NCBI GenBank assembly: GCA_947089095.1
Contig: CAMUJB010000007.1
Location: forward strand, 1 to 43,786
DNA length: 43,786 nucleotides
Origin: an uncultured Clostridia bacterium
GTDB lineage: Bacteria; Bacillota; Clostridia; Lachnospirales; Lachnospiraceae
Direction of reading: 5' to 3'
Positions 1 to 8,006 of this stretch are shown one piece after another. The notes beneath the pieces are model-generated. The model did no database searches, was not told where the DNA came from, and saw only the letters and a program-made list of their open reading frames with translations. The position numbers and the translations under genes were made by a program. The stretch's first letter is position 1, and the number at the start of each line of letters is the position of its first letter.

Positions 1-158
1 TTACGAGGTCGATGAAGCAGGAAGCCCATTGGCTTTAGACAATGGGTAGTTCACCTAGAAAAAGCCATACAACGTGCAAAAGAAAAAGGAATTGTTTTAT
101 AAATATTTTTTTAAGAATGGAATTTTTAACCATTTAATTTTAGAAAGGGGAAAAAATT

Positions 159-476
159 ATGCCATTTATAGACGTAACAGATACTATATTAAATGAAGAG
201 GTAAAAGAATTAGAAGAAATATTGTCAAGAAACGAAAAAGCAAGAGAGGCCTGTATTCAATTTGAAGCAGAGTGCAAATTAAGAAAAGAACTAGCAGAAG
301 CTAGGAAAGAGAAAAATATAACACAAAAAGAACTGCAAAAACGTACCGGATTAACGCAACAAATGATTAGTAGAATAGAAAAGGATCAGGAAATAAGTCC
401 TAGTTTGAAAAATTTGATTAAATATGTAAATGCGATTGGATATGAATTAACGATACGTCCCGTTAAAAAGAAATAA
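159..476 (+). CDS. XRE-family helix-turn-helix DNA-binding protein (antitoxin-like small regulator)
   Basis: C-terminal half carries a classic HTH_XRE segment ITQKELQKRTGLTQQMISRIEKDQ. The N-terminal half is charged and helical. Purine-rich RBS (aaagggg) lies upstream. Confidence 0.6.
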   Translation: MPFIDVTDTILNEEVKELEEILSRNEKAREACIQFEAECKLRKELAEARKEKNITQKELQKRTGLTQQMISRIEKDQEISPSLKNLIKYVNAIGYELTIRPVKKK

Positions 477-639
477 ATATTAATAAAATAAATTTTCTTG
501 CTAATAATTTTTACCTGAAATTTCTTAAGATTGAAAACTATATAGAAAATGTAGATAGAAAGAAATATATAAATTTTTTCAATATTTTTAAGAATAAATC
601 TATAAAAAAGCTGTATATTCACAAAGAATTCGAGTAATG

Positions 640-688
640 GATAAAATCCCGGAAACGCTGATAAAATAAAGGGTTCCGGGATTGCTTT
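640..688. terminator. Stem-loop between convergent genes (HTH gene on +, kinase-like gene on -)
   Basis: aatcccggaaac / ggttccgggatt arms (11 bp, 1 mismatch) around a 15-nt loop, followed by gctttatattt. Confidence 0.4.
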
Positions 689-781
689 ATATTTCAAAAT
701 TTCTCACCAGCCATTTTATTTATCCACTCCGCCAGTAAGAATACCAAAATTTTTCTATTATACTTTTTTAATACTTAATAC

Positions 782-1897
782 CTAAGGCTGCATCAGCTCC
801 GCAACCCGATTCATCATTTCACAATATTCCTCATAAGATTTATATTTTAAAAACAAATCAATATTTTCCTGAACCAACATAGATCTTTGAAAATTTGCAA
901 TATCTCCTCTAATACAATTATATCGATACGTATAATCTAATTTTATCATCCGCAGCGTTTCTGCATAAGATAATCCGGTAGGAAAATATAATCCCTTTGT
1001 TGATTTTCCTTTAAAACAAGAGTCGTGATCAAATAACGGATAAAGCGAATGAGTTTTTCCATTCCAAACCAATGCACCAAAATTGTCCCGATTTCGATCG
1101 GTATTCAATGTAATATAATCCAATATATGCATTTTTAAAAATCCAATTGGATCAATCTGCATATATTTTAAATAAGGCAGACTGTTATAAGTCATAAGAT
1201 TGGTATCATAAAAAGACATCATATCCCGATAGGGAACCAATTCCAAGCTCTCTGATGTCTTGATCTGGCATACCGAACAATCCCTTTCATTTACTCTAGA
1301 ATAAATATATCGACTGCATGGAATATTTAAAAACTTTGCCAAATAATAAACAATAATTTCTGATAAAATTTCCTTAATTTTCTCATATTTTATCAATACA
1401 ATTCCCTTTGATGTGCGAACAAAGCACTTTGCCCGAATCCCTTTACTGGTCAATTCTCCTGTATAAATCTGATCTCCTATTGCATCATTTTGATTAATAT
1501 CCTGCAGATTCCCTGTCAATGCAACATCTGCTATCTTTAATGAGAATTCATTTTTATAGAGATTGACTTTTTCCCATGTCTCTTCCGAATATTTGGAACA
1601 GATCCAGTAATTATCCCGGAAACTTAATGCTCTGCTTAAGATACAGATATTGATATCGCTTTGATCATCAATTCCGCAAGAAACTAAAATTTCCTTACAA
1701 TATTCTCGATTTGTCATTAACATCCGATCCGAACAAAAACTTACAATCATCCCATAATCTCTGCGATTTTTTATAGACAGCGGTATTAATTCACAGTTAA
1801 AAACTTGAACTGTCTTTCTTTTTGTATCAAATTGAAGTACGATTTCATCCTTATATTTTAAAAAATATTCGCTTTCTAAAAATTCTCTGTCTCCCAT
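782..1897 (-). CDS. HipA/CtkA-like kinase-fold protein with a non-canonical catalytic loop; putative toxin-like kinase or pseudokinase
   Basis: Segment MHILDYITLNTDRNRDNFGALV has the HipA_C catalytic-loop pattern (hydrophobic-x-N-T-D-x-H-x-K-N-F-S), but with H replaced by N and K replaced by D. A later LFDHDSCF resembles the Mg-binding Asp region. RBS aaaggtgg sits 5 nt before the ATG. Confidence 0.45.
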   Translation of the reverse strand: MGDREFLESEYFLKYKDEIVLQFDTKRKTVQVFNCELIPLSIKNRRDYGMIVSFCSDRMLMTNREYCKEILVSCGIDDQSDINICILSRALSFRDNYWICSKYSEETWEKVNLYKNEFSLKIADVALTGNLQDINQNDAIGDQIYTGELTSKGIRAKCFVRTSKGIVLIKYEKIKEILSEIIVYYLAKFLNIPCSRYIYSRVNERDCSVCQIKTSESLELVPYRDMMSFYDTNLMTYNSLPYLKYMQIDPIGFLKMHILDYITLNTDRNRDNFGALVWNGKTHSLYPLFDHDSCFKGKSTKGLYFPTGLSYAETLRMIKLDYTYRYNCIRGDIANFQRSMLVQENIDLFLKYKSYEEYCEMMNRVAELMQP

Positions 1898-1926
1898 AAG
1901 CCACCTTTTACTGAATCCTATCTATC

Positions 1927-2175
1927 TTACTTGTTTCCTTGAATCCTATGTCTTCTCTTATACTGCTCCCAATTTCTTATCGCATCCTCTTCTGTCTCAC
2001 CCCCAAATTCTTCATTAATTAAGGTAATCATATAATCCAACATATCCTCCTTAATTCGTGTGGCATTACACTGATTTAAACGTTCTGCCTGTCTGCGTAT
2101 AAATTCTTCATCTGGTAGAGTGTCATCCTCTAAATCGGCTAGAGCATCACACATTTCCAAATCCTGAAATCTCAT
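1927..2175 (-). CDS. Small acidic hypothetical protein (82 aa), co-operonic and upstream of the kinase-like gene
   Basis: Intact ORF rich in D/E with no HTH. A 29-nt gap separates it from the downstream kinase-like gene on the same strand. Confidence 0.4.
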   Translation of the reverse strand: MRFQDLEMCDALADLEDDTLPDEEFIRRQAERLNQCNATRIKEDMLDYMITLINEEFGGETEEDAIRNWEQYKRRHRIQGNK

Positions 2176-2247
2176 CCAATCACCCCATTTTCTATCTATC
2201 TCAATAGCTATCGCCCTTTCTAATATTCCTTTATACTTTTAATCTGA

Positions 2248-2316
2248 AAAAAGGTGCCCTGCCAGCCAATGACAGTATACGATATACTATCCGGTTGGGT
2301 GCACCTTTTTTTTGAT
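2248..2316. terminator. Bidirectional rho-independent terminator separating the NUDIX operon from the kinase-like operon
   Basis: aaaaaggtgccctgccagcc...ggttgggtgcaccttttttttga: a GC stem flanked by an A-run on one side and a T-run on the other. Confidence 0.5.
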
Positions 2317-2329
2317 CTTTTTGTTTTTC

Positions 2330-2842
2330 CTACTCTCTAAAGTCAGAAACAGCAGAACAGTCCTTCTGATCTAATATTTCTTCCTGTGTTGGATAACAAA
2401 TCGCTTCTGTAAGTTTTTCTCCCATATACCGTAATTTTAAAGAAAAATAATTCTGTCTCTCCTCTAAAAGCCGGAAAAATATCCGATCTCCCTCCCAGAG
2501 ATTTAACTGAAATACGTCTTTTTTATTTACCCATGCAAGGGTTCCTTCTGTACATTCTATAGGGGTTCCTTTCCACCGATCTGCAGTAAAAAGATGCATA
2601 TATTCCGTTTCTTGCCCATCCTGAACAAATGTGACCAATCCTCGGTAAAAATACCGGGTTAATGTATAACCGGTTTCTTCCTTTACTTCCCGCAGCATAC
2701 ATTCCTCTGGTGTCTCACCTTCCTGAAATTTTCCTCCAATTCCAATCCATTTCCCCTGATTATTGTCATTGGTCTTTTTATTTCGATACATCATCAGATA
2801 GGTTTCACCTTGCTCTAAATAACATAAAGTTGACAAGTGCAT
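2330..2842 (-). CDS. NUDIX hydrolase (MutT-like)
   Basis: Canonical Nudix box GGKFQEGETPEECMLREVKEETG (G-x5-E-x7-REUxEExGU). Its start codon overlaps the stop of the upstream giant ORF (ATG 15 nt after TAA). Confidence 0.85.
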   Translation of the reverse strand: MHLSTLCYLEQGETYLMMYRNKKTNDNNQGKWIGIGGKFQEGETPEECMLREVKEETGYTLTRYFYRGLVTFVQDGQETEYMHLFTADRWKGTPIECTEGTLAWVNKKDVFQLNLWEGDRIFFRLLEERQNYFSLKLRYMGEKLTEAICYPTQEEILDQKDCSAVSDFRE

Positions 2843-2859
2843 ATCGTTTCTTTCCTTTT

Positions 2860-5800
2860 TTAATTAAAATAACATTTTTTAATTTCACTGGTTGAAATTT
2901 CTTCTAATCCCTGAGCAACTACATACTCTATCATATCAGGCTCTACCGTCCGAATAAATAATAGTGCATCTTCCTTAACATCAATATGAATCTCTTTATA
3001 AAGCACATTTTCAATTGGCATCTGTTCCATCTTAGAATCTGCTATAGGATTGTTGGTATAATAGATACGAACCACTTCTCTTGTAGCCCCTTGGAACGGA
3101 ACCCACTTTTTATACTCAATTTCAGCCGGTGAAAACTTACAGTCAAAATAATGTCTGTGATCTCTTCCTAAATAATAGTGGAAACGGGACTGCTGCAATG
3201 CATCGGTTTCATAATTTTTTTCAATTTTAATTGAACTTCCCGGACGGCTCTTTAACAGTCCATATGCTACTCCTGTTTTTGCATTTGGAACATATTCTTC
3301 TGTATTTTCACTCTCTCCCGTCAGCGGATCAATCAATTCAAAATATGCATTTCCTATTTCATCTGCCATTCTCTTAGATTTGCTGTAATATTCTTCAATC
3401 TTCTTTTGGAACAATTCTTTTACAAATATAGATTTACTGGAATTTCCTGCTAAAAAGATATAAATCTTATTCTCTTCTTTTTTTGTTTTCTCTTTAGATA
3501 AAAACATTTTAATTAAGCATTGGAAGAAACTATCAATTCCTTTTTGAATCCGTTTTTTAATTAATTCTACTAAATCCTGACTGGAAAATTCTAAAATACA
3601 CTGCGGCACAGGTTCTCCATTCATATTGTATAGAGAAACAACAATTCCTTCTTTATCAACTTCATTTTGTGCAGATTCATTGTCTAATTGGTATTTCTTT
3701 CTCCAACCCTGCTCCTGATGCCATAACGGACGCAACTCTTCTTTTAAAATCGACATATTTCTTCTTGCAATCTGAGAATTGATTAATAATGTCTCACTTC
3801 CTGCAAAACTATTCTCTCCAACTGGCAAAGTAAAGGTAATCTTCTTCTCCCGAAATACCTCTAAGTTTTTCTGATATACCTGATAAGCCAGTAATTCCAA
3901 TATATTTTCGCCGCCCAGTGTAACATCCGAATCTGCCCCAAAACATTCTAACACATAGTCATAGGCTTCTCTTTCGTACTCTTCTTCTGTTGCACCTCTG
4001 CAGATTCCAAAATCAAAGTCAGTTGTTCCTCCTCCAAAATCAAAAATTCCATACATAAACTGTTCTGTCTCATCCTTTGGCTCTAGATGACTTTGTTCCA
4101 ACGCTGTTACTGCATATGCTGCCGGCTCGCTGATTCCTAATTTTACCTGGAACCGTTCCATACATTCGGGATCACTCAGTATACTAGAAGGCAGAGATTT
4201 TTTAATTCCTTCATAAAAACTATTGGCTATAAAATCTCTTACATCTTTTGAATATCCAACCGGAAATGTCATTAGATAATTTAAGTAAATACCGTTCCGC
4301 ATATTGTTAATATATAACCCAATATAGTAAGCATACAATTCAATCGGATTGACAATTCCCTCTGTCATCTCAATATGCTCCCCTAAGTAATATTCTTCTT
4401 TTTGCTTATCCTTAATCAGTACACTTCCTTTTTCCCGATTTGCCCACTGTTTTAATTCATTAAAATAGGCATAAAAATCATCCGGCTTACAATTTCGAAA
4501 ATCTTCATAGGCATCATAAGAAACAAAAATATCATTGCAGGAAGTATGCGGTCTGCCAGCTTCTTTTTGATAATCTTCCATAAATTTTTTTACATTTGTA
4601 AATTCAATAATAGTTGGATTTTCGAAATCTTCTTCTTTTACTTCATCACTTAAATTTCCTGTTCCAATTCGAATCGGCACAATCCGGTTCGTAGCATCCT
4701 GACGAACAACGACTGTACTTTTCGTTCCAAAATCAATGCCAACTACACCATTTTTAATATCTAATTTCGGATCTCTTGCAATTAAATTCTCATAACGGAT
4801 TGTCTCACTTTCTGAAAAATTATTCTCTTTTCTGTCTTCCGTCCATTCTAAAGTTTCGGTACCCGATTCTTCACTCTCTTTTCTTGCTTCAAATAATTCC
4901 CAATGTCCTCTGATAATATCAAATAAAATATCTTTATCATATGGTTCTAAACGGCATCTATTTTTATCACAATCTAATAATGTCTGTATTTTTTCCATTT
5001 CTTCGTCTACTTCCCCTTCTCCTTGTATCGCATCTGTTTCTTTTATTTTTTCAATTTCTTCTATATTTTCATTTTCGGCTTTTTCGGTTTCTTTTCGCTC
5101 TTCTGTTTCTTCTGTCTTTTTATTTTCCCTACTTATTATTTTTGTCTCTTCTGCTTTTTCCGTTTTTACCTTCTCTATTTTTTGAATATTTTCTGGTTGC
5201 TGCTGTTCTGCTGCCTTTTCTGGAATTGATTTTAACTGCTTTTGTTGCTCATTAGAACTTTGGTCATTAGAACTTCTTTGCATCTCCTTCTGTTCTGGTA
5301 TTTTATTTTGTAATTCCAACTCCTGCTGATTTTTTAAGTTTTTTGATTCTGCTTTAGAAATTTCTAATTCTATAGATATTTCTGGTTCCGACATCTTAGA
5401 AATTTCAGACATTTCTGATTTATTAACAGATAATAATATCTCTGATTCTTCTAAATTCTCTTGAATTTCTGGCTCTAATACTTCTAATTCTATAGAAATT
5501 GGTTCTTCCTCTACCTCTTCTGCAGCTTCTGATTCTATAGAAATCGGCTCTTCTACTATCTCTTCTGCTTCAAAAGAGATTGGTTCTTCCTCCACCTCTT
5601 CTGCTGCTTCTGATTCTATAGAAATTGGCTCTTCTATTATCTCTTCTGCTTCAAAAGAAATCGGTTCTTCCTCTATCTCTTCTACAGCTTCTGGTTCTAT
5701 AGAAATTGGCTTTTCTACTATCTCTTCTGCTTCAAAAGAAATCGGTTCTTCCTCCACCTCTTCTGCTGCTTCTGATTCTATAGAAATCGGCTCTTCTATT

Positions 5801-7215
5801 ATCTCTTCTGCTTCAAAAGAAATCGGTTCTTCCTCTACCTCTTCTGCTGCTTCTAATTCTATAGAAATCGGCTCTTCTACTATCTCTTCTGCTTCAAAAG
5901 AGATTGGTTCTTCCTCCACCTCTTCTGCTGCTTCTGATTCTATAGAAATCGGCTCTTCTATTATCTCTTCTGCTTCAAAAGAAATTGGTTCTTCCTCTAT
6001 CTCTTCTGCAACTTCTGATTCTATAGAAATCGGCTCTTCTATTATCTCTTCTGCTTCAAAAGAAATTGGTTCTTCCTCTATCTCTTCTGCAACTTCTGAT
6101 TCTATAGAAATCGGCTCTTCTATTATCTCTTCTGCTTCAAAAGAAATTGGTTCTTCCTCTACCTCTTCTGCAATTTCTGGTTCTATAGAAATTGGCTCTT
6201 CCTCTATCTCTTCTGCAGCTTCTGGTTCTATAGAAATCGGTTCTTCCTCTACCTCTTCTGCAACTTCTGATTCTATAGAAATTGGTTCTTCCTCTATCTC
6301 TTCTGCAACTTCTGATTCTATAGAAATTGGCTCTTCCTCTATCTCTTCTGCTGCTTCTGGTTCTATAGAAATCGGTTTTTCCTCTACCTCTTCTGCTGCT
6401 TCTGATTCTATAGAAATCGGCTCTTCTACTATCTCTTCTGCAGGTGCTTGATATAATGAAGATAATTTCGATGTTCTAACTGTTTCTTCCTTCATTAATT
6501 GTTCCGTCTCTTCTAGAACAAGTTCTTTCTTATCCTCCTTTTCCACTATTTCATCCATTTTATTTCTTTGTAAAATAAAATCTTCAAAATCAATATTATG
6601 AAAATTATTACTTAAAAATTGCATCATTTTCCAACTGTCTTTTGAGGTATACAATGCAGATGGCGTTAGACCCATCTTTGCCCAAAGATAGATATCATAA
6701 TTCCAGGATTCTATATCTTTTCTTTTATATTTTTCTTCTACACGATAGATCTGCAAAATTGTTCCCTCTTCATTCTTCTGAAGACGGCGTATTTTTCTAC
6801 GTTCCTCATCATAAACCATGCCATTTTTTAAAAAAATCTTTTTCTTTCGGCATCTTTCTCCAAGTCCGGCAGCTCCAAATGTCTTTGGCATATTAGAAAT
6901 AGGCAGATAAGGAATAATCTGTTCTGCTTCCTCTTCTTTTAAATAATCCCAGACAATCCGCCCAGAATTTATCAAAATCGGACTTCTTTCCGGTCTTTTG
7001 TCTATCCGATAACTATTCTCTAGATACTTTTGTTCCATCGGAATAAAAATGTCTGTAGCCCTATGCTGATACCAGGTTCCTTCCAAACTGACTAATCGAA
7101 TAAATCCATTTACCCAATTACTTGGCGATTCAAAGATCGTGCGAATGTTGGCTTCCATATGGCAGCATTTTTCCCATATCTCTTTTTTCTCCAAGATACT
7201 CCATTTTTTCTCCAT
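2860..7215 (-). CDS. Giant 1451-aa multidomain protein: unknown N-terminal domain, acidic tandem-repeat linker, K/E/Q-rich low-complexity segment, Hsp70/actin-fold ATPase domain, and an unknown C-terminal domain
   Basis: Three Hsp70 NBD motifs are recognisable: VVGIDFGTKSTVV (phosphate-1, compare DnaK GIDLGTTNS), FDFGGGTTDFDFGI (phosphate-2, compare DLGGGTFD), and IFLAGNSSKSIFVKELF (adenosine motif, compare LVGGSTRIP). SD gaggtag precedes the ATG, and the stop TAG of the upstream gene lies inside this SD. Confidence 0.75.
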   Translation of the reverse strand: MEKKWSILEKKEIWEKCCHMEANIRTIFESPSNWVNGFIRLVSLEGTWYQHRATDIFIPMEQKYLENSYRIDKRPERSPILINSGRIVWDYLKEEEAEQIIPYLPISNMPKTFGAAGLGERCRKKKIFLKNGMVYDEERRKIRRLQKNEEGTILQIYRVEEKYKRKDIESWNYDIYLWAKMGLTPSALYTSKDSWKMMQFLSNNFHNIDFEDFILQRNKMDEIVEKEDKKELVLEETEQLMKEETVRTSKLSSLYQAPAEEIVEEPISIESEAAEEVEEKPISIEPEAAEEIEEEPISIESEVAEEIEEEPISIESEVAEEVEEEPISIEPEAAEEIEEEPISIEPEIAEEVEEEPISFEAEEIIEEPISIESEVAEEIEEEPISFEAEEIIEEPISIESEVAEEIEEEPISFEAEEIIEEPISIESEAAEEVEEEPISFEAEEIVEEPISIELEAAEEVEEEPISFEAEEIIEEPISIESEAAEEVEEEPISFEAEEIVEKPISIEPEAVEEIEEEPISFEAEEIIEEPISIESEAAEEVEEEPISFEAEEIVEEPISIESEAAEEVEEEPISIELEVLEPEIQENLEESEILLSVNKSEMSEISKMSEPEISIELEISKAESKNLKNQQELELQNKIPEQKEMQRSSNDQSSNEQQKQLKSIPEKAAEQQQPENIQKIEKVKTEKAEETKIISRENKKTEETEERKETEKAENENIEEIEKIKETDAIQGEGEVDEEMEKIQTLLDCDKNRCRLEPYDKDILFDIIRGHWELFEARKESEESGTETLEWTEDRKENNFSESETIRYENLIARDPKLDIKNGVVGIDFGTKSTVVVRQDATNRIVPIRIGTGNLSDEVKEEDFENPTIIEFTNVKKFMEDYQKEAGRPHTSCNDIFVSYDAYEDFRNCKPDDFYAYFNELKQWANREKGSVLIKDKQKEEYYLGEHIEMTEGIVNPIELYAYYIGLYINNMRNGIYLNYLMTFPVGYSKDVRDFIANSFYEGIKKSLPSSILSDPECMERFQVKLGISEPAAYAVTALEQSHLEPKDETEQFMYGIFDFGGGTTDFDFGICRGATEEEYEREAYDYVLECFGADSDVTLGGENILELLAYQVYQKNLEVFREKKITFTLPVGENSFAGSETLLINSQIARRNMSILKEELRPLWHQEQGWRKKYQLDNESAQNEVDKEGIVVSLYNMNGEPVPQCILEFSSQDLVELIKKRIQKGIDSFFQCLIKMFLSKEKTKKEENKIYIFLAGNSSKSIFVKELFQKKIEEYYSKSKRMADEIGNAYFELIDPLTGESENTEEYVPNAKTGVAYGLLKSRPGSSIKIEKNYETDALQQSRFHYYLGRDHRHYFDCKFSPAEIEYKKWVPFQGATREVVRIYYTNNPIADSKMEQMPIENVLYKEIHIDVKEDALLFIRTVEPDMIEYVVAQGLEEISTSEIKKCYFN
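5470..6450 (-). repeat. Near-perfect 84-nt (45 + 39 nt) tandem repeats inside the giant ORF, encoding EEPISIESE(A/V)AEE(V/I)EE and EEPISFEAEEI(I/V)E units about 20 times
   Basis: The nucleotide repeats ctcttctgc(t/a)gcttctgattctatagaaat(c/t)ggctcttc are almost identical copy to copy. The protein segment is extremely acidic and disordered-looking. Confidence 0.85.
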
Positions 7216-7220
7216 TTTTT

Positions 7221-8006
7221 CTACCTCACAATCACAATCGGCTTTATCACATCATCTTGTATGCTATATCCATTTAAAAGGACTTCCTGCACCACCCCAT
7301 TTACAATACTCTCCGAAGTTTTGATATATTGCCTCGAATCAAACTCATTACCAATCAGTACCTCTATAATCTCATAACGTTCTTTTCTTATATTGGTAAT
7401 ATTATAAACATTGATACATAAATCAAAGAAATTTGCCAATACTCGAATATTTTCCGTTTTTCTATCTGAATTCATAATTTCATCTTTAATAAAATTCCAT
7501 AATTGCTTAATTCCATTTTTATCTTTTCCTAAAGCAATAAAAGATTTAATATCCCATGAACCACATAAATTTTTTAAATAAGACTTTTGGCTTTTCTCCA
7601 ATTTCGAAATCCCCTGCCAAATCTCACTAATCTCCTCTAATGGTTCAAACTCCTTTTTCTGTTCCTGAAGCTGTTGATACAATTCTTCCTTCGAATGTTG
7701 AATCTCTCTCTTTTCCTTTTCCAAAACCACATTTTCTTTTTCTAATGCAGCATTTTCCTTTTCCAAGACAGCCTTTTCTTTTTCCAATGTCCGATAGTTT
7801 TCATGTAATCTTTCACACTCCAGATGTGCCTCTTCCAACTGATGATAAAGCAGATCCTTTTCTTTTTCCAATGCTTCTATCCTACGTTGAAATTCCCTCT
7901 CCTGTTCCTGATCTTTTTTTACAATTTTCTTAATATCCTCCTGAACCTCCCCATCTTTTAACAACTCACGCAAAATACGTTTTACACTAATTTGTATCTC
8001 ATCCAT
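7221..8006 (-). CDS. Coiled-coil protein (261 aa) with a C-terminal globular domain; first gene of the giant-ATPase operon
   Basis: Residues 30-130 are heptad-like and E/K/L-rich (LEKEKAVLEKENAALEKENVVLEKEKREI). The stop codon lies 5 nt from the next ATG, consistent with translational coupling. Confidence 0.5.
   Translation of the reverse strand: MDEIQISVKRILRELLKDGEVQEDIKKIVKKDQEQEREFQRRIEALEKEKDLLYHQLEEAHLECERLHENYRTLEKEKAVLEKENAALEKENVVLEKEKREIQHSKEELYQQLQEQKKEFEPLEEISEIWQGISKLEKSQKSYLKNLCGSWDIKSFIALGKDKNGIKQLWNFIKDEIMNSDRKTENIRVLANFFDLCINVYNITNIRKERYEIIEVLIGNEFDSRQYIKTSESIVNGVVQEVLLNGYSIQDDVIKPIVIVR

What the first reader, a model, noticed from the sequence alone, without database searches (positions are those of the whole stretch)
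782..2175. HipA/CtkA-like kinase-fold gene with substituted catalytic-loop residues plus an acidic 82-aa partner, next to the Hsp70-fold operon
The 371-aa protein carries the HipA_C-type catalytic-loop pattern. The expected His and Lys of the NTD-x-H-x-K-NFS motif are replaced (NTDRNRDNFG), so it is either a divergent kinase or a pseudokinase. It is co-transcribed with a small, very acidic non-HTH protein rather than a HipB-like HTH, so it is not a classical hipBA. An XRE HTH gene (159-476) lies convergently downstream. The pair sits directly beside the Hsp70-fold operon and may be part of the same accessory island, or an accessory toxin/immunity-like module of it.
Basis: partly seen in the sequence, partly recalled or inferred. 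Interest (0 to 1): 0.55.

Follow-up and report, generated by a model that had tools for sequence, protein, structure and literature searches.

The report
HipA-fold kinase with novel small partner
This is a self-contained two-gene cassette from gut Lachnospiraceae: a kinase with the fold of the persistence toxin HipA but a remodelled active site, plus a previously undescribed small acidic helical partner; it resembles a toxin-antitoxin pair, is not a classical hipBA, and is not part of the neighbouring Hsp70-like operon.

The parts
782..1897 (-). 371-aa HipA-fold kinase gene: N-terminal HipA-like subdomain plus core kinase domain
1427..1456 (-). Gly-rich loop codons E148-L-T150-S-K-G153-I-R-A-K157; T150 is in the register of HipA Ser150
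   Evidence: G153 is in 107/107 and K157 in 104/107 superfamily members; T/S at 150 in 85/107. hhalign places T150=S150, G153=G153, K157=K157, with low local confidence. T150 is present in 19/19 partner-bearing kinases and replaced by C or M in the two partner-less subclades.
1082..1099 (-). Catalytic loop codons D267-R-N269-R-D-N272 (the clade-specific D-R-N-R-D-N)
   Evidence: Invariant in alignment A1 and in all 33 loci examined. hhalign and hmmsearch align D267=HipA D309, N269=H311, D271=K313, N272=N314. The superfamily has D-R-H-x-x-N.
1022..1030 (-). Mg-binding motif codons D290-H-D292 (F-D-H-D)
   Evidence: D290 aligns with HipA D332. D290 is present in 105/107 superfamily members. D292 and K296 are fixed only in this clade.
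1898..1926 (-). 29-nt spacer with the kinase Shine-Dalgarno sequence (AAGGTGG); no terminator
   Evidence: Sequence. Fold dG -1.7 kcal/mol, z +0.6. In one related clade the two genes overlap by 8 nt.
1927..2175 (-). 82-aa acidic (pI 4.5) all-helical partner gene, founding a new family with conserved C-terminal motif K42..L46.Y48...W69..Y72-K73
   Evidence: ORF. 41 homologous clusters, all Lachnospiraceae hypothetical proteins with no Pfam domain. Directly upstream of the kinase in 21/35 loci. Mantel r 0.96. AF2 gives three helices, pLDDT 73. No structural match at E<5. Codon-position bias.
2247..2311 (-). Terminator-like compound hairpin (A-run, GGUGCACCC...GGGCACC stem, U-run) between the NUDIX gene and the small gene. 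It marks the upstream boundary of the two-gene unit in this species.
   Evidence: dG -31.5 kcal/mol, z -6.1, 0/200 shuffles fold as well. It is not conserved in sister species L012/L013.
645..683 (-). Hairpin followed by UUUU, about 100 nt after the kinase stop codon; a candidate terminator for the unit
   Evidence: dG -14.1 kcal/mol, z -2.7, 3/200 shuffles fold as well. Moderate support only.

Best explanation
The locus is a self-contained, independently inherited two-gene module. The downstream gene encodes a catalytically competent protein kinase with the complete HipA architecture (N-subdomain plus core). It belongs to a large CtkA-related 'D-R-H-x-x-N' superfamily that Pfam and NCBIfam do not call. 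Within that superfamily, a Lachnospiraceae clade has remodelled the active site to D-R-N-R-D-N / F-D-H-D...K. The upstream gene encodes a cognate small acidic three-helix protein with no DNA-binding domain. Most likely this protein binds the kinase stoichiometrically and holds it inactive, making a type II toxin-antitoxin-like pair. By analogy with HipS and HipB it may act near the Gly-rich loop/Thr150 through its conserved Trp69. When freed, the kinase would phosphorylate a cellular target and arrest growth. Shown here: the fold, conservation of catalytic residues, the gene pairing, co-divergence, and independence from neighbouring genes. Inferred: physical binding, inhibition, toxicity, the target, and the role of Thr150 and Trp69.
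Against: No experiment or complex prediction supports binding, inhibition or toxicity. 14 of 35 loci have an intact kinase and no detectable partner. Three of these lineages keep Thr150, so the kinase is tolerated alone, which is unusual for a potent toxin. The partner has no DNA-binding fold for the autoregulation typical of type II TA modules. The near-universal superfamily His is replaced, so activity could be altered. The clade was not found on viral contigs, and plasmid hits are only distant relatives. The Thr150/partner correlation rests on only two independent events. The T150=S150 register has low local alignment confidence.
Confidence: 0.45

Rival explanations
1. A non-toxic regulatory or signalling kinase. 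The small protein would be its substrate, activator or targeting subunit, not an inhibitor. The module would tune some Lachnospiraceae-specific physiology without causing growth arrest.
For: 40% of loci carry the kinase alone with all catalytic residues intact. All 38 genome-collection loci come from Lachnospiraceae MAGs or isolates, and those inspected lie among housekeeping or sensory genes such as MCP, the spoVA operon, an AlaX-like gene and two-component systems. The partner has no autoregulatory DNA-binding domain.
Against: The tight upstream-small/downstream-large arrangement with overlaps, the fast-evolving partner and the patchy unrelated neighbourhoods are more typical of TA-like cassettes. 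The partner has no conserved Ser or Thr that could be a phospho-acceptor; its conserved residues are K42, L46, Y48, W69, Y72 and K73. The closest structural relatives with known biology are toxins (HipA, HipT).
Confidence: 0.3
2. A pseudokinase, or an enzyme with changed chemistry (a nucleotide-binding scaffold, an AMPylase-like enzyme or a small-molecule/lipid kinase), as a result of the His to Asn change and the accompanying R270/D271/D292/K296 substitutions.
For: His269 is present in 104/107 superfamily members but is replaced in the whole clade, together with four other clade-specific charged residues around the active site. By sequence, more members match PI3_PI4_kinase (24/50) than HipA_C (6/50), and the loop is most like PI4KII's NTDRGNDN.
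Against: The catalytic Asp, both Mg ligands, both Lys residues, the helix-C Glu and the Gly-rich loop Gly are all invariant. Classical pseudokinases usually lose at least one of these (own knowledge). The substituted residues are themselves invariant, which means selection on a working site. The full HipA-like N-subdomain is retained.
Confidence: 0.15
3. An accessory toxin/immunity-like module of the adjacent Hsp70-fold operon (261-aa coiled-coil protein, giant Hsp70-like protein, NUDIX), functionally linked to it.
For: All five genes are collinear on one strand in the source species and in two sister species (L011-L013). In L013 the NUDIX-to-small-gene spacer is only about 40 nt, with no hairpin.
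Against: No NUDIX, giant or 261-aa homolog lies near the kinase in any other locus. 8 of 8 metagenomic loci with the 261-aa + giant pair (58-80% identity) have no kinase or partner within 3-8 kb downstream. In this window a hairpin of -31.5 kcal/mol plus a U-run follows the NUDIX gene.
Confidence: 0.05
4. A classical hipBA-type system in which the convergent XRE HTH protein (159-476) serves as the HipB antitoxin/repressor.
For: The XRE protein gives weak sub-threshold hits to HipB-type models (couple_hipB 32 bits against a cut-off of 71.65; HipB 23.6 against 79).
Against: The gene is convergent, not co-oriented. It is found only in the L004-type strain variant, next to an IS605-type TnpB and a type I R-M system. 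Five other strain variants with a 100% identical kinase have an AAA_14/DUF4143 gene there instead. No XRE homolog occurs in any of the other loci.
Confidence: 0.02

Closest known systems
HipA of the E. coli K-12 hipBA module (Ser/Thr kinase toxin; PDB 5k98, 3tpd)
   Different: Only 11% identity. No Pfam HipA_C or NCBIfam HipA hit. The loop is D-R-N-R-D-N, not D-G-H-A-K-N. The upstream partner is an acidic helical protein with no HTH, not HipB. The family was not covered by the 10 gene-context families of Gerdes et al. 2021 (PMC8262856).
CtkA (JHP0940) of Helicobacter pylori (PDB 3akj)
HipBST (HipT kinase with HipS antitoxin; PDB 7ab3, 7wcf)
   Same: A Hip-fold kinase neutralised by a small protein that does not bind DNA. 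HipS uses a conserved Trp next to the Gly-rich loop, and Gly-rich-loop Ser phosphorylation is coupled to antitoxin action (PMC10627512). Our partner likewise has a near-invariant Trp, and its presence tracks Thr150.
   Different: HipS is homologous to HipA N-subdomain-1, and HipT lacks that subdomain. Here the N-subdomain is still fused to the kinase, the partner is an unrelated three-helix protein, and there is no third HTH gene.
Type II phosphatidylinositol 4-kinases (PI4K2A/B)
   Different: These are eukaryotic lipid kinases. Similarity is limited to about 35 residues by sequence and to the core lobe by structure. They have no HipA-like N-subdomain.
PADLOC candidate defence protein PDC-M03A
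   Same: The kinase core (residues 149-295) matches at E 3e-10.
   Different: PDC-M03A models are 280-305 positions long (core-only length). None of the five proteins scanned from 782-8006 hit any other PDC-M03 model. I know of no experimental validation, and the single paper found mentions it once and was not read.

Membership tests
HipA family (Pfam HipA_C PF07804 / NCBIfam type II TA HipA toxin) | Significant match to the curated HipA_C / HipA models | tested here: not met
   The window protein has no HipA_C hit at E<=1 and no NCBIfam hit. Only 6/50 family members reach E<=0.01. In the ten distant relatives scanned, all HipA_C hits fall below the 30.5-bit cut-off.
HipA family (Pfam HipA_C PF07804 / NCBIfam type II TA HipA toxin) | HipA three-dimensional architecture: N-subdomain plus core kinase | tested here: met
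HipA family (Pfam HipA_C PF07804 / NCBIfam type II TA HipA toxin) | [quoted passage not shown] 2021 | tested here: inconclusive
   The Gly-rich loop (G153, K157), catalytic Asp/Asn and Mg Asp are present and invariant. His and Lys of the catalytic motif are replaced by Asn and Asp. The activation loop could not be mapped.
HipA family (Pfam HipA_C PF07804 / NCBIfam type II TA HipA toxin) | Adjacent HTH antitoxin (HipB) in the same operon | tested here: not met
   The upstream partner has no HTH or any Pfam domain. The nearby XRE gene is convergent and strain-variable.
HipA family (Pfam HipA_C PF07804 / NCBIfam type II TA HipA toxin) | Kinase is growth-inhibitory and phosphorylates an aminoacyl-tRNA synthetase | not testable with these tools
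   Requires expression and phosphoproteomic experiments.
CtkA-like / 'D-R-H-x-x-N' HipA-related superfamily (not called by Pfam/NCBIfam) | Profile-level sequence homology across the core and, for full-length members, the N-domain | tested here: met
   The A1 profile finds 3,208 clusters at E<=1e-3, with full-length alignments. CtkA scores E 3.6e-5. The N-domain motifs R58, R64, D95 and W98 are present in 105-107 of 107 members.
CtkA-like / 'D-R-H-x-x-N' HipA-related superfamily (not called by Pfam/NCBIfam) | Catalytic-loop His (D-R-H) | tested here: not met
   His is present in 104/107 distant members and Asn in every member of the Lachnospiraceae clade.
PI3_PI4_kinase (Pfam PF00454) | Score above the gathering threshold (27.1 bits) | tested here: not met
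   14.7 bits, E 0.03, catalytic-loop region only. 24/50 family members reach E<=0.01.
Type II toxin-antitoxin module | Two adjacent co-oriented genes, small one first, closely spaced or overlapping, inherited together | tested here: met
   29-nt spacer here; -23 to +39 nt in relatives; 21/35 loci; Mantel r 0.96.
Type II toxin-antitoxin module | Antitoxin binds and neutralises a growth-inhibiting toxin | not testable with these tools
   No complex prediction tool was available. Both structure-prediction jobs went to the two monomers.
Type II toxin-antitoxin module | Antitoxin carries a DNA-binding domain for autoregulation (typical, not universal) | tested here: not met
   No Pfam/NCBIfam domain. 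Three-helix model with no PDB match at E<5. No conserved operator: the AGATAGATAG repeat is marginal and not conserved.
PADLOC PDC-M03 candidate defence system | Presence of further PDC-M03 components beside the A component | tested here: not met
   Only the A models hit, and only on the kinase core (3e-10). The small partner and the three upstream proteins hit no PDC-M03 model.

The most novel reading that the evidence does not exclude
This is the founding example of an eleventh Hip-type kinase family, restricted to gut Lachnospiraceae. In it, a full-length HipA-fold toxin with a His-less D-R-N-R-D-N active site is controlled by a new class of non-DNA-binding, all-helical antitoxin. The antitoxin's action is mechanistically coupled to phosphorylation of Thr150 in the Gly-rich loop. 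Lineages that lost the antitoxin survived by mutating Thr150.
Probability: 0.25. Interest if true: 0.65.

Novelty: new variant of a known kind. Interest (0 to 1): 0.5.

Why it matters
Hip kinases are the model for kinase-mediated bacterial persistence, and their diversity has been catalogued by gene context. This locus adds a large clade that Pfam and NCBIfam fail to call, from abundant gut commensals. It keeps the full HipA architecture but pairs it with a partner unlike HipB, HipS, HipN or HipR, and it has replaced a nearly universal catalytic-loop His. If the pair is a toxin-antitoxin system, it shows a new way to restrain a HipA-fold kinase. It also offers a natural experiment on how Gly-rich-loop phosphorylation and antitoxin control are coupled, because partner loss coincides with Thr150 loss, twice. 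If it is not toxic, it shows that HipA-fold kinases have non-toxin roles in Firmicutes. It also corrects the idea that the pair belongs to the neighbouring Hsp70-like operon.

Tried and rejected
(1) Single-sequence searches were uninformative: Pfam, NCBIfam and PDB phmmer gave no HipA hit. Profiles and structure were needed.
(2) The narrow family profile aligned only the catalytic region to HipA in hhalign (53 columns, probability 16%) and hmmsearch. A broader 125-sequence profile was needed.
(3) The simple terminator scan missed both hairpins because of its loop-size limit. Direct folding found them.
(4) The AGATAGATAG repeat, considered as a possible operator, was rejected. It occurs 2 times against 0.15 expected, 3/100 shuffles reach that count, and it is not conserved in L012/L013.
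(5) 'Cluster 2', a recurrent neighbour in 19 loci, proved to be a heterogeneous set of histidine kinases, response regulators and DegV proteins linked through multidomain proteins, and was rejected as a partner.
(6) The Foldseek search of the partner model gave nothing at E<5.
(7) The afdb50 fold library was unavailable.
(8) The viral-contig scan for the clade found nothing.
(9) The literature search for PDC-M03 found a single paper that mentions it once, which I did not read.
(10) My first catalytic-loop regex was off by one and gave nothing. It was corrected.
(11) The upstream ORFs of plasmid-borne sister kinases do not match the partner HMM, so the partner family appears specific to the Lachnospiraceae clade.

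Full report
OBSERVATION. A 371-aa ORF lies at 782..1897 (-) and an 82-aa ORF at 1927..2175 (-), with an XRE-type HTH gene at 159..476 (+) convergent with them. The motif LNTDRNRDNFG is present; the D-R-N-R-D-N codons are at 1082-1099. The small protein is acidic (21 D+E, 12 K+R, pI 4.51) and matches no Pfam or NCBIfam family. Both are real genes. The large one has more than 150 homologous clusters. The small one has 41, and its differences from two sister species fall on third codon positions (29 vs 7 and 7; 37 vs 8 and 9).

THE 'SUBSTITUTED' CATALYTIC LOOP. hhalign and hmmsearch align D267/N269/D271/N272/D290 with HipA D309/H311/K313/N314/D332. HipA is the wrong yardstick, however. An exhaustive profile search shows that the protein belongs to a very large family: 3,208 representative clusters at E<=1e-3 and 1,928 at <=1e-10. 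In the members scanned, HipA_C and HipA_2 hits all fall below threshold, and only two of ten reach the PI3_PI4_kinase cut-off. In 107 distant full-length members the loop is D-R-H-x-x-N, as in CtkA: Asp 105, Arg 100, His 104 and Asn 106 of 107. The HipA Lys is therefore not expected here. The His, on the other hand, is nearly universal, and the Lachnospiraceae clade containing our protein has replaced it with Asn. That clade has also fixed R270, D271, D292 and K296, positions that vary elsewhere. The variant loop is identical in all 33 loci examined, at 42-100% overall identity. G153, K157, K170, E180, D267, N272 and D290 are invariant in the clade and in 104-107 of 107 superfamily members. 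This is a coordinated, selected remodelling of a working active site, not decay. PI4KII has the aligned loop NTDRGNDNW, also without His; that it is an active kinase is my own knowledge. An active enzyme is therefore the most likely reading. Altered chemistry cannot be excluded.

THE SMALL PARTNER. The first search found only close homologs. However, tblastn and HMM searches of 38 species-representative genome loci, all Lachnospiraceae, found recognisable relatives directly upstream of the kinase, at -16 to +39 nt. They occur in 21 of the 35 loci that could be evaluated, including kinases only 42-55% identical to ours. A metagenomic locus, L010, has a divergent 64-aa version. The family (A2/A3) has a variable acidic N-terminus. 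Its conserved C-terminal motif contains K42, L46, Y48, W69, Y72 and K73. All 41 database clusters are unannotated Lachnospiraceae proteins. No Pfam family matches consistently. The AlphaFold model is a three-helix protein of moderate confidence (pLDDT 73) with no structural neighbour at E<5. Nothing suggests DNA binding. Kinase and partner co-diverge (Mantel r 0.96, 0 of 5,000 permutations reach it), and the partner evolves faster (37% vs 59% mean identity). In one clade the stop and start codons overlap by 8 nt. On the kinase tree the partner occupies deep branches throughout. It is missing from two monophyletic subclades and three singletons. This pattern suggests an ancestral partner that was lost several times.

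A CORRELATION WORTH FOLLOWING. I compared partner-bearing kinases (n=19) with partner-less ones (n=14) at every position. The best discriminator is residue 150. It is Thr in 19/19 partner-bearing kinases, Cys in one partner-less subclade and Met in the other; the three partner-less singletons keep Thr. By motif (E-L-T150-S-K-G153-I-R-A-K157 against HipA R-I-S150-V-A-G153-A-Q-E-K157) and by the broad hhalign alignment (low local confidence), T150 is the counterpart of HipA Ser150. Position 150 is Thr or Ser in 85/107 superfamily members. In HipA, Ser150 autophosphorylation ejects the Gly-rich loop and inactivates the kinase. In HipT the phospho-serine docks on the catalytic Asp and on the D+2 His, which is the very position that is Asn here. 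HipS blocks the kinase by inserting a conserved Trp beside the Gly-rich loop, and HipB also uses a Trp (PMC10627512). [quoted passage not shown] SURROUNDINGS. (a) XRE gene. Strains of the source species carry 100% identical kinases, but only the L004-type variant, which matches our window, has the XRE gene. There it sits beside an IS605-type TnpB and a type I R-M system. The other strains have an AAA_14/DUF4143 gene in that position. No other locus has an XRE homolog. It is not a HipB.

(b) Hsp70-like operon. The 261-aa, giant and NUDIX genes accompany the pair only in the source species and in two sister species, L012 and L013. Conversely, 8 of 8 metagenomic loci with the 261-aa + giant pair (58-80% identity) lack the kinase and its partner within 3-8 kb downstream. 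In this window a compound hairpin flanked by an A-run and a U-run (2247-2311; dG -31.5, z -6.1) follows the NUDIX gene. A weaker hairpin plus U-run (645-683; dG -14.1, z -2.7) follows the kinase gene, and the 29-nt spacer between the small gene and the kinase gene is unstructured. The first hairpin is not conserved in the sister species, so read-through there is possible. The adjacency is best explained as inherited synteny within one genus.

(c) Elsewhere the pair sits in unrelated neighbourhoods. Distant full-length relatives (24-28% identity) lie on Campylobacter, Helicobacter and Clostridium plasmids in TA-rich regions (zeta, HicA, PIN). Their upstream genes do not match our partner family. 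The kinase core resembles the PADLOC defence candidate PDC-M03A (3e-10).

COMPARISON WITH KNOWN SYSTEMS. Gerdes et al. (2021) defined ten Hip kinase families by gene context: HipA, HipE, HipT, HipH, HipF, HipG, HipI, HipJ, HipL and HipM. Their partners are HTH proteins, HipS-like or HipS-HIRAN proteins, or resolvase-like proteins (PMC8262856). None combines a full-length kinase with a small acidic helical partner, and their sampling required sequence similarity that this clade lacks. The module works most like a Hip TA pair with a protein inhibitor that does not bind DNA, as in HipBST. It fails several membership criteria for HipA proper: no HipA_C match, no HipB, and a variant catalytic motif. 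It also differs from CtkA by having an N-subdomain and lacking the His.

VERDICT. The fold assignment and 'not classical hipBA' are supported. The partner is a real, recurrent and previously undescribed family. The His substitution is real, but it is a selected clade signature, not evidence of a dead kinase. The XRE gene and the Hsp70-like operon are bystanders. My best explanation is a TA-like kinase/inhibitor cassette (confidence about 0.45 for the mechanism; more than 0.9 for the fold and for the two-gene unit). The main rival is a non-toxic regulatory kinase with an accessory subunit (0.3), motivated by the 40% of loci where the kinase stands alone. Novelty: a new variant of a known kind. 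Interest is moderate (0.5). It would rise if the Thr150/partner coupling or a new mode of antitoxin action were confirmed.

Noticed in passing
window 2860-7215 (-): The giant Hsp70-like gene contains long acidic EEPISIE/FEAEEI-type tandem repeats. Its product length varies from 1313 to 1533 aa among strains with otherwise identical flanks. It has no Pfam, NCBIfam or PADLOC hit.
   Followed up: partly
window 1-780; loci L001-L006 downstream of the kinase: The slot just downstream of the kinase is strain-variable. Most strains have an AAA_14/DUF4143 gene there; the L004/window variant has XRE + IS605-type TnpB + a type I R-M system. One distant superfamily member (P0247, 894 aa) is a kinase-AAA_14 fusion, hinting at a functional link between these kinases and AAA_14 ATPases.
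   Followed up: partly
L018, L019, L023, L024, L027, L029, L042 (gene directly downstream of the kinase): By my reading of the sequence (no family scan was run), a ~385-aa gene resembling the AlaX alanyl-tRNA-editing protein lies 15-72 nt downstream of the kinase, or overlaps it by 4 nt, in one clade. This is intriguing because HipA and HipT target aminoacyl-tRNA synthetases. However, it is a single clade and so possibly a single event.
   Followed up: no
L010 1-13116: Here the kinase sits in a dense same-strand array of accessory genes: Fic, two HipA_C proteins, DUF3990, YpsA, a PARG-like gene, NTase/HEPN, and a split paralog of the kinase itself. The array looks like a toxin/defence island.
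   Followed up: no
L058 1152-2507 (C. helveticus plasmid NZ_CP037749.1): The gene annotated 'transcriptional regulator' (WP_252972884.1) is actually a tandem paralog of the adjacent HipA-domain kinase. It has the same N-domain, the DRHLGNFG loop and a sub-threshold HipA_C hit, and no HTH.
   Followed up: yes
window 2330-2842 (-): The NUDIX hydrolase matches the single-gene PADLOC defence candidate PDC-S07 (E 2.5e-13). It is absent from the related 261-aa + giant loci L051-L057. L050 has only a distant (30% identity) NUDIX-like match about 6 kb away.
   Followed up: partly
window 1918-1927 and 2192-2201 (-): The 10-mer AGATAGATAG occurs just upstream of both the small gene and the kinase gene (2 matches against 0.15 expected; 3/100 shuffles reach 2). 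It is not conserved in sister species, so it is probably chance.
   Followed up: yes
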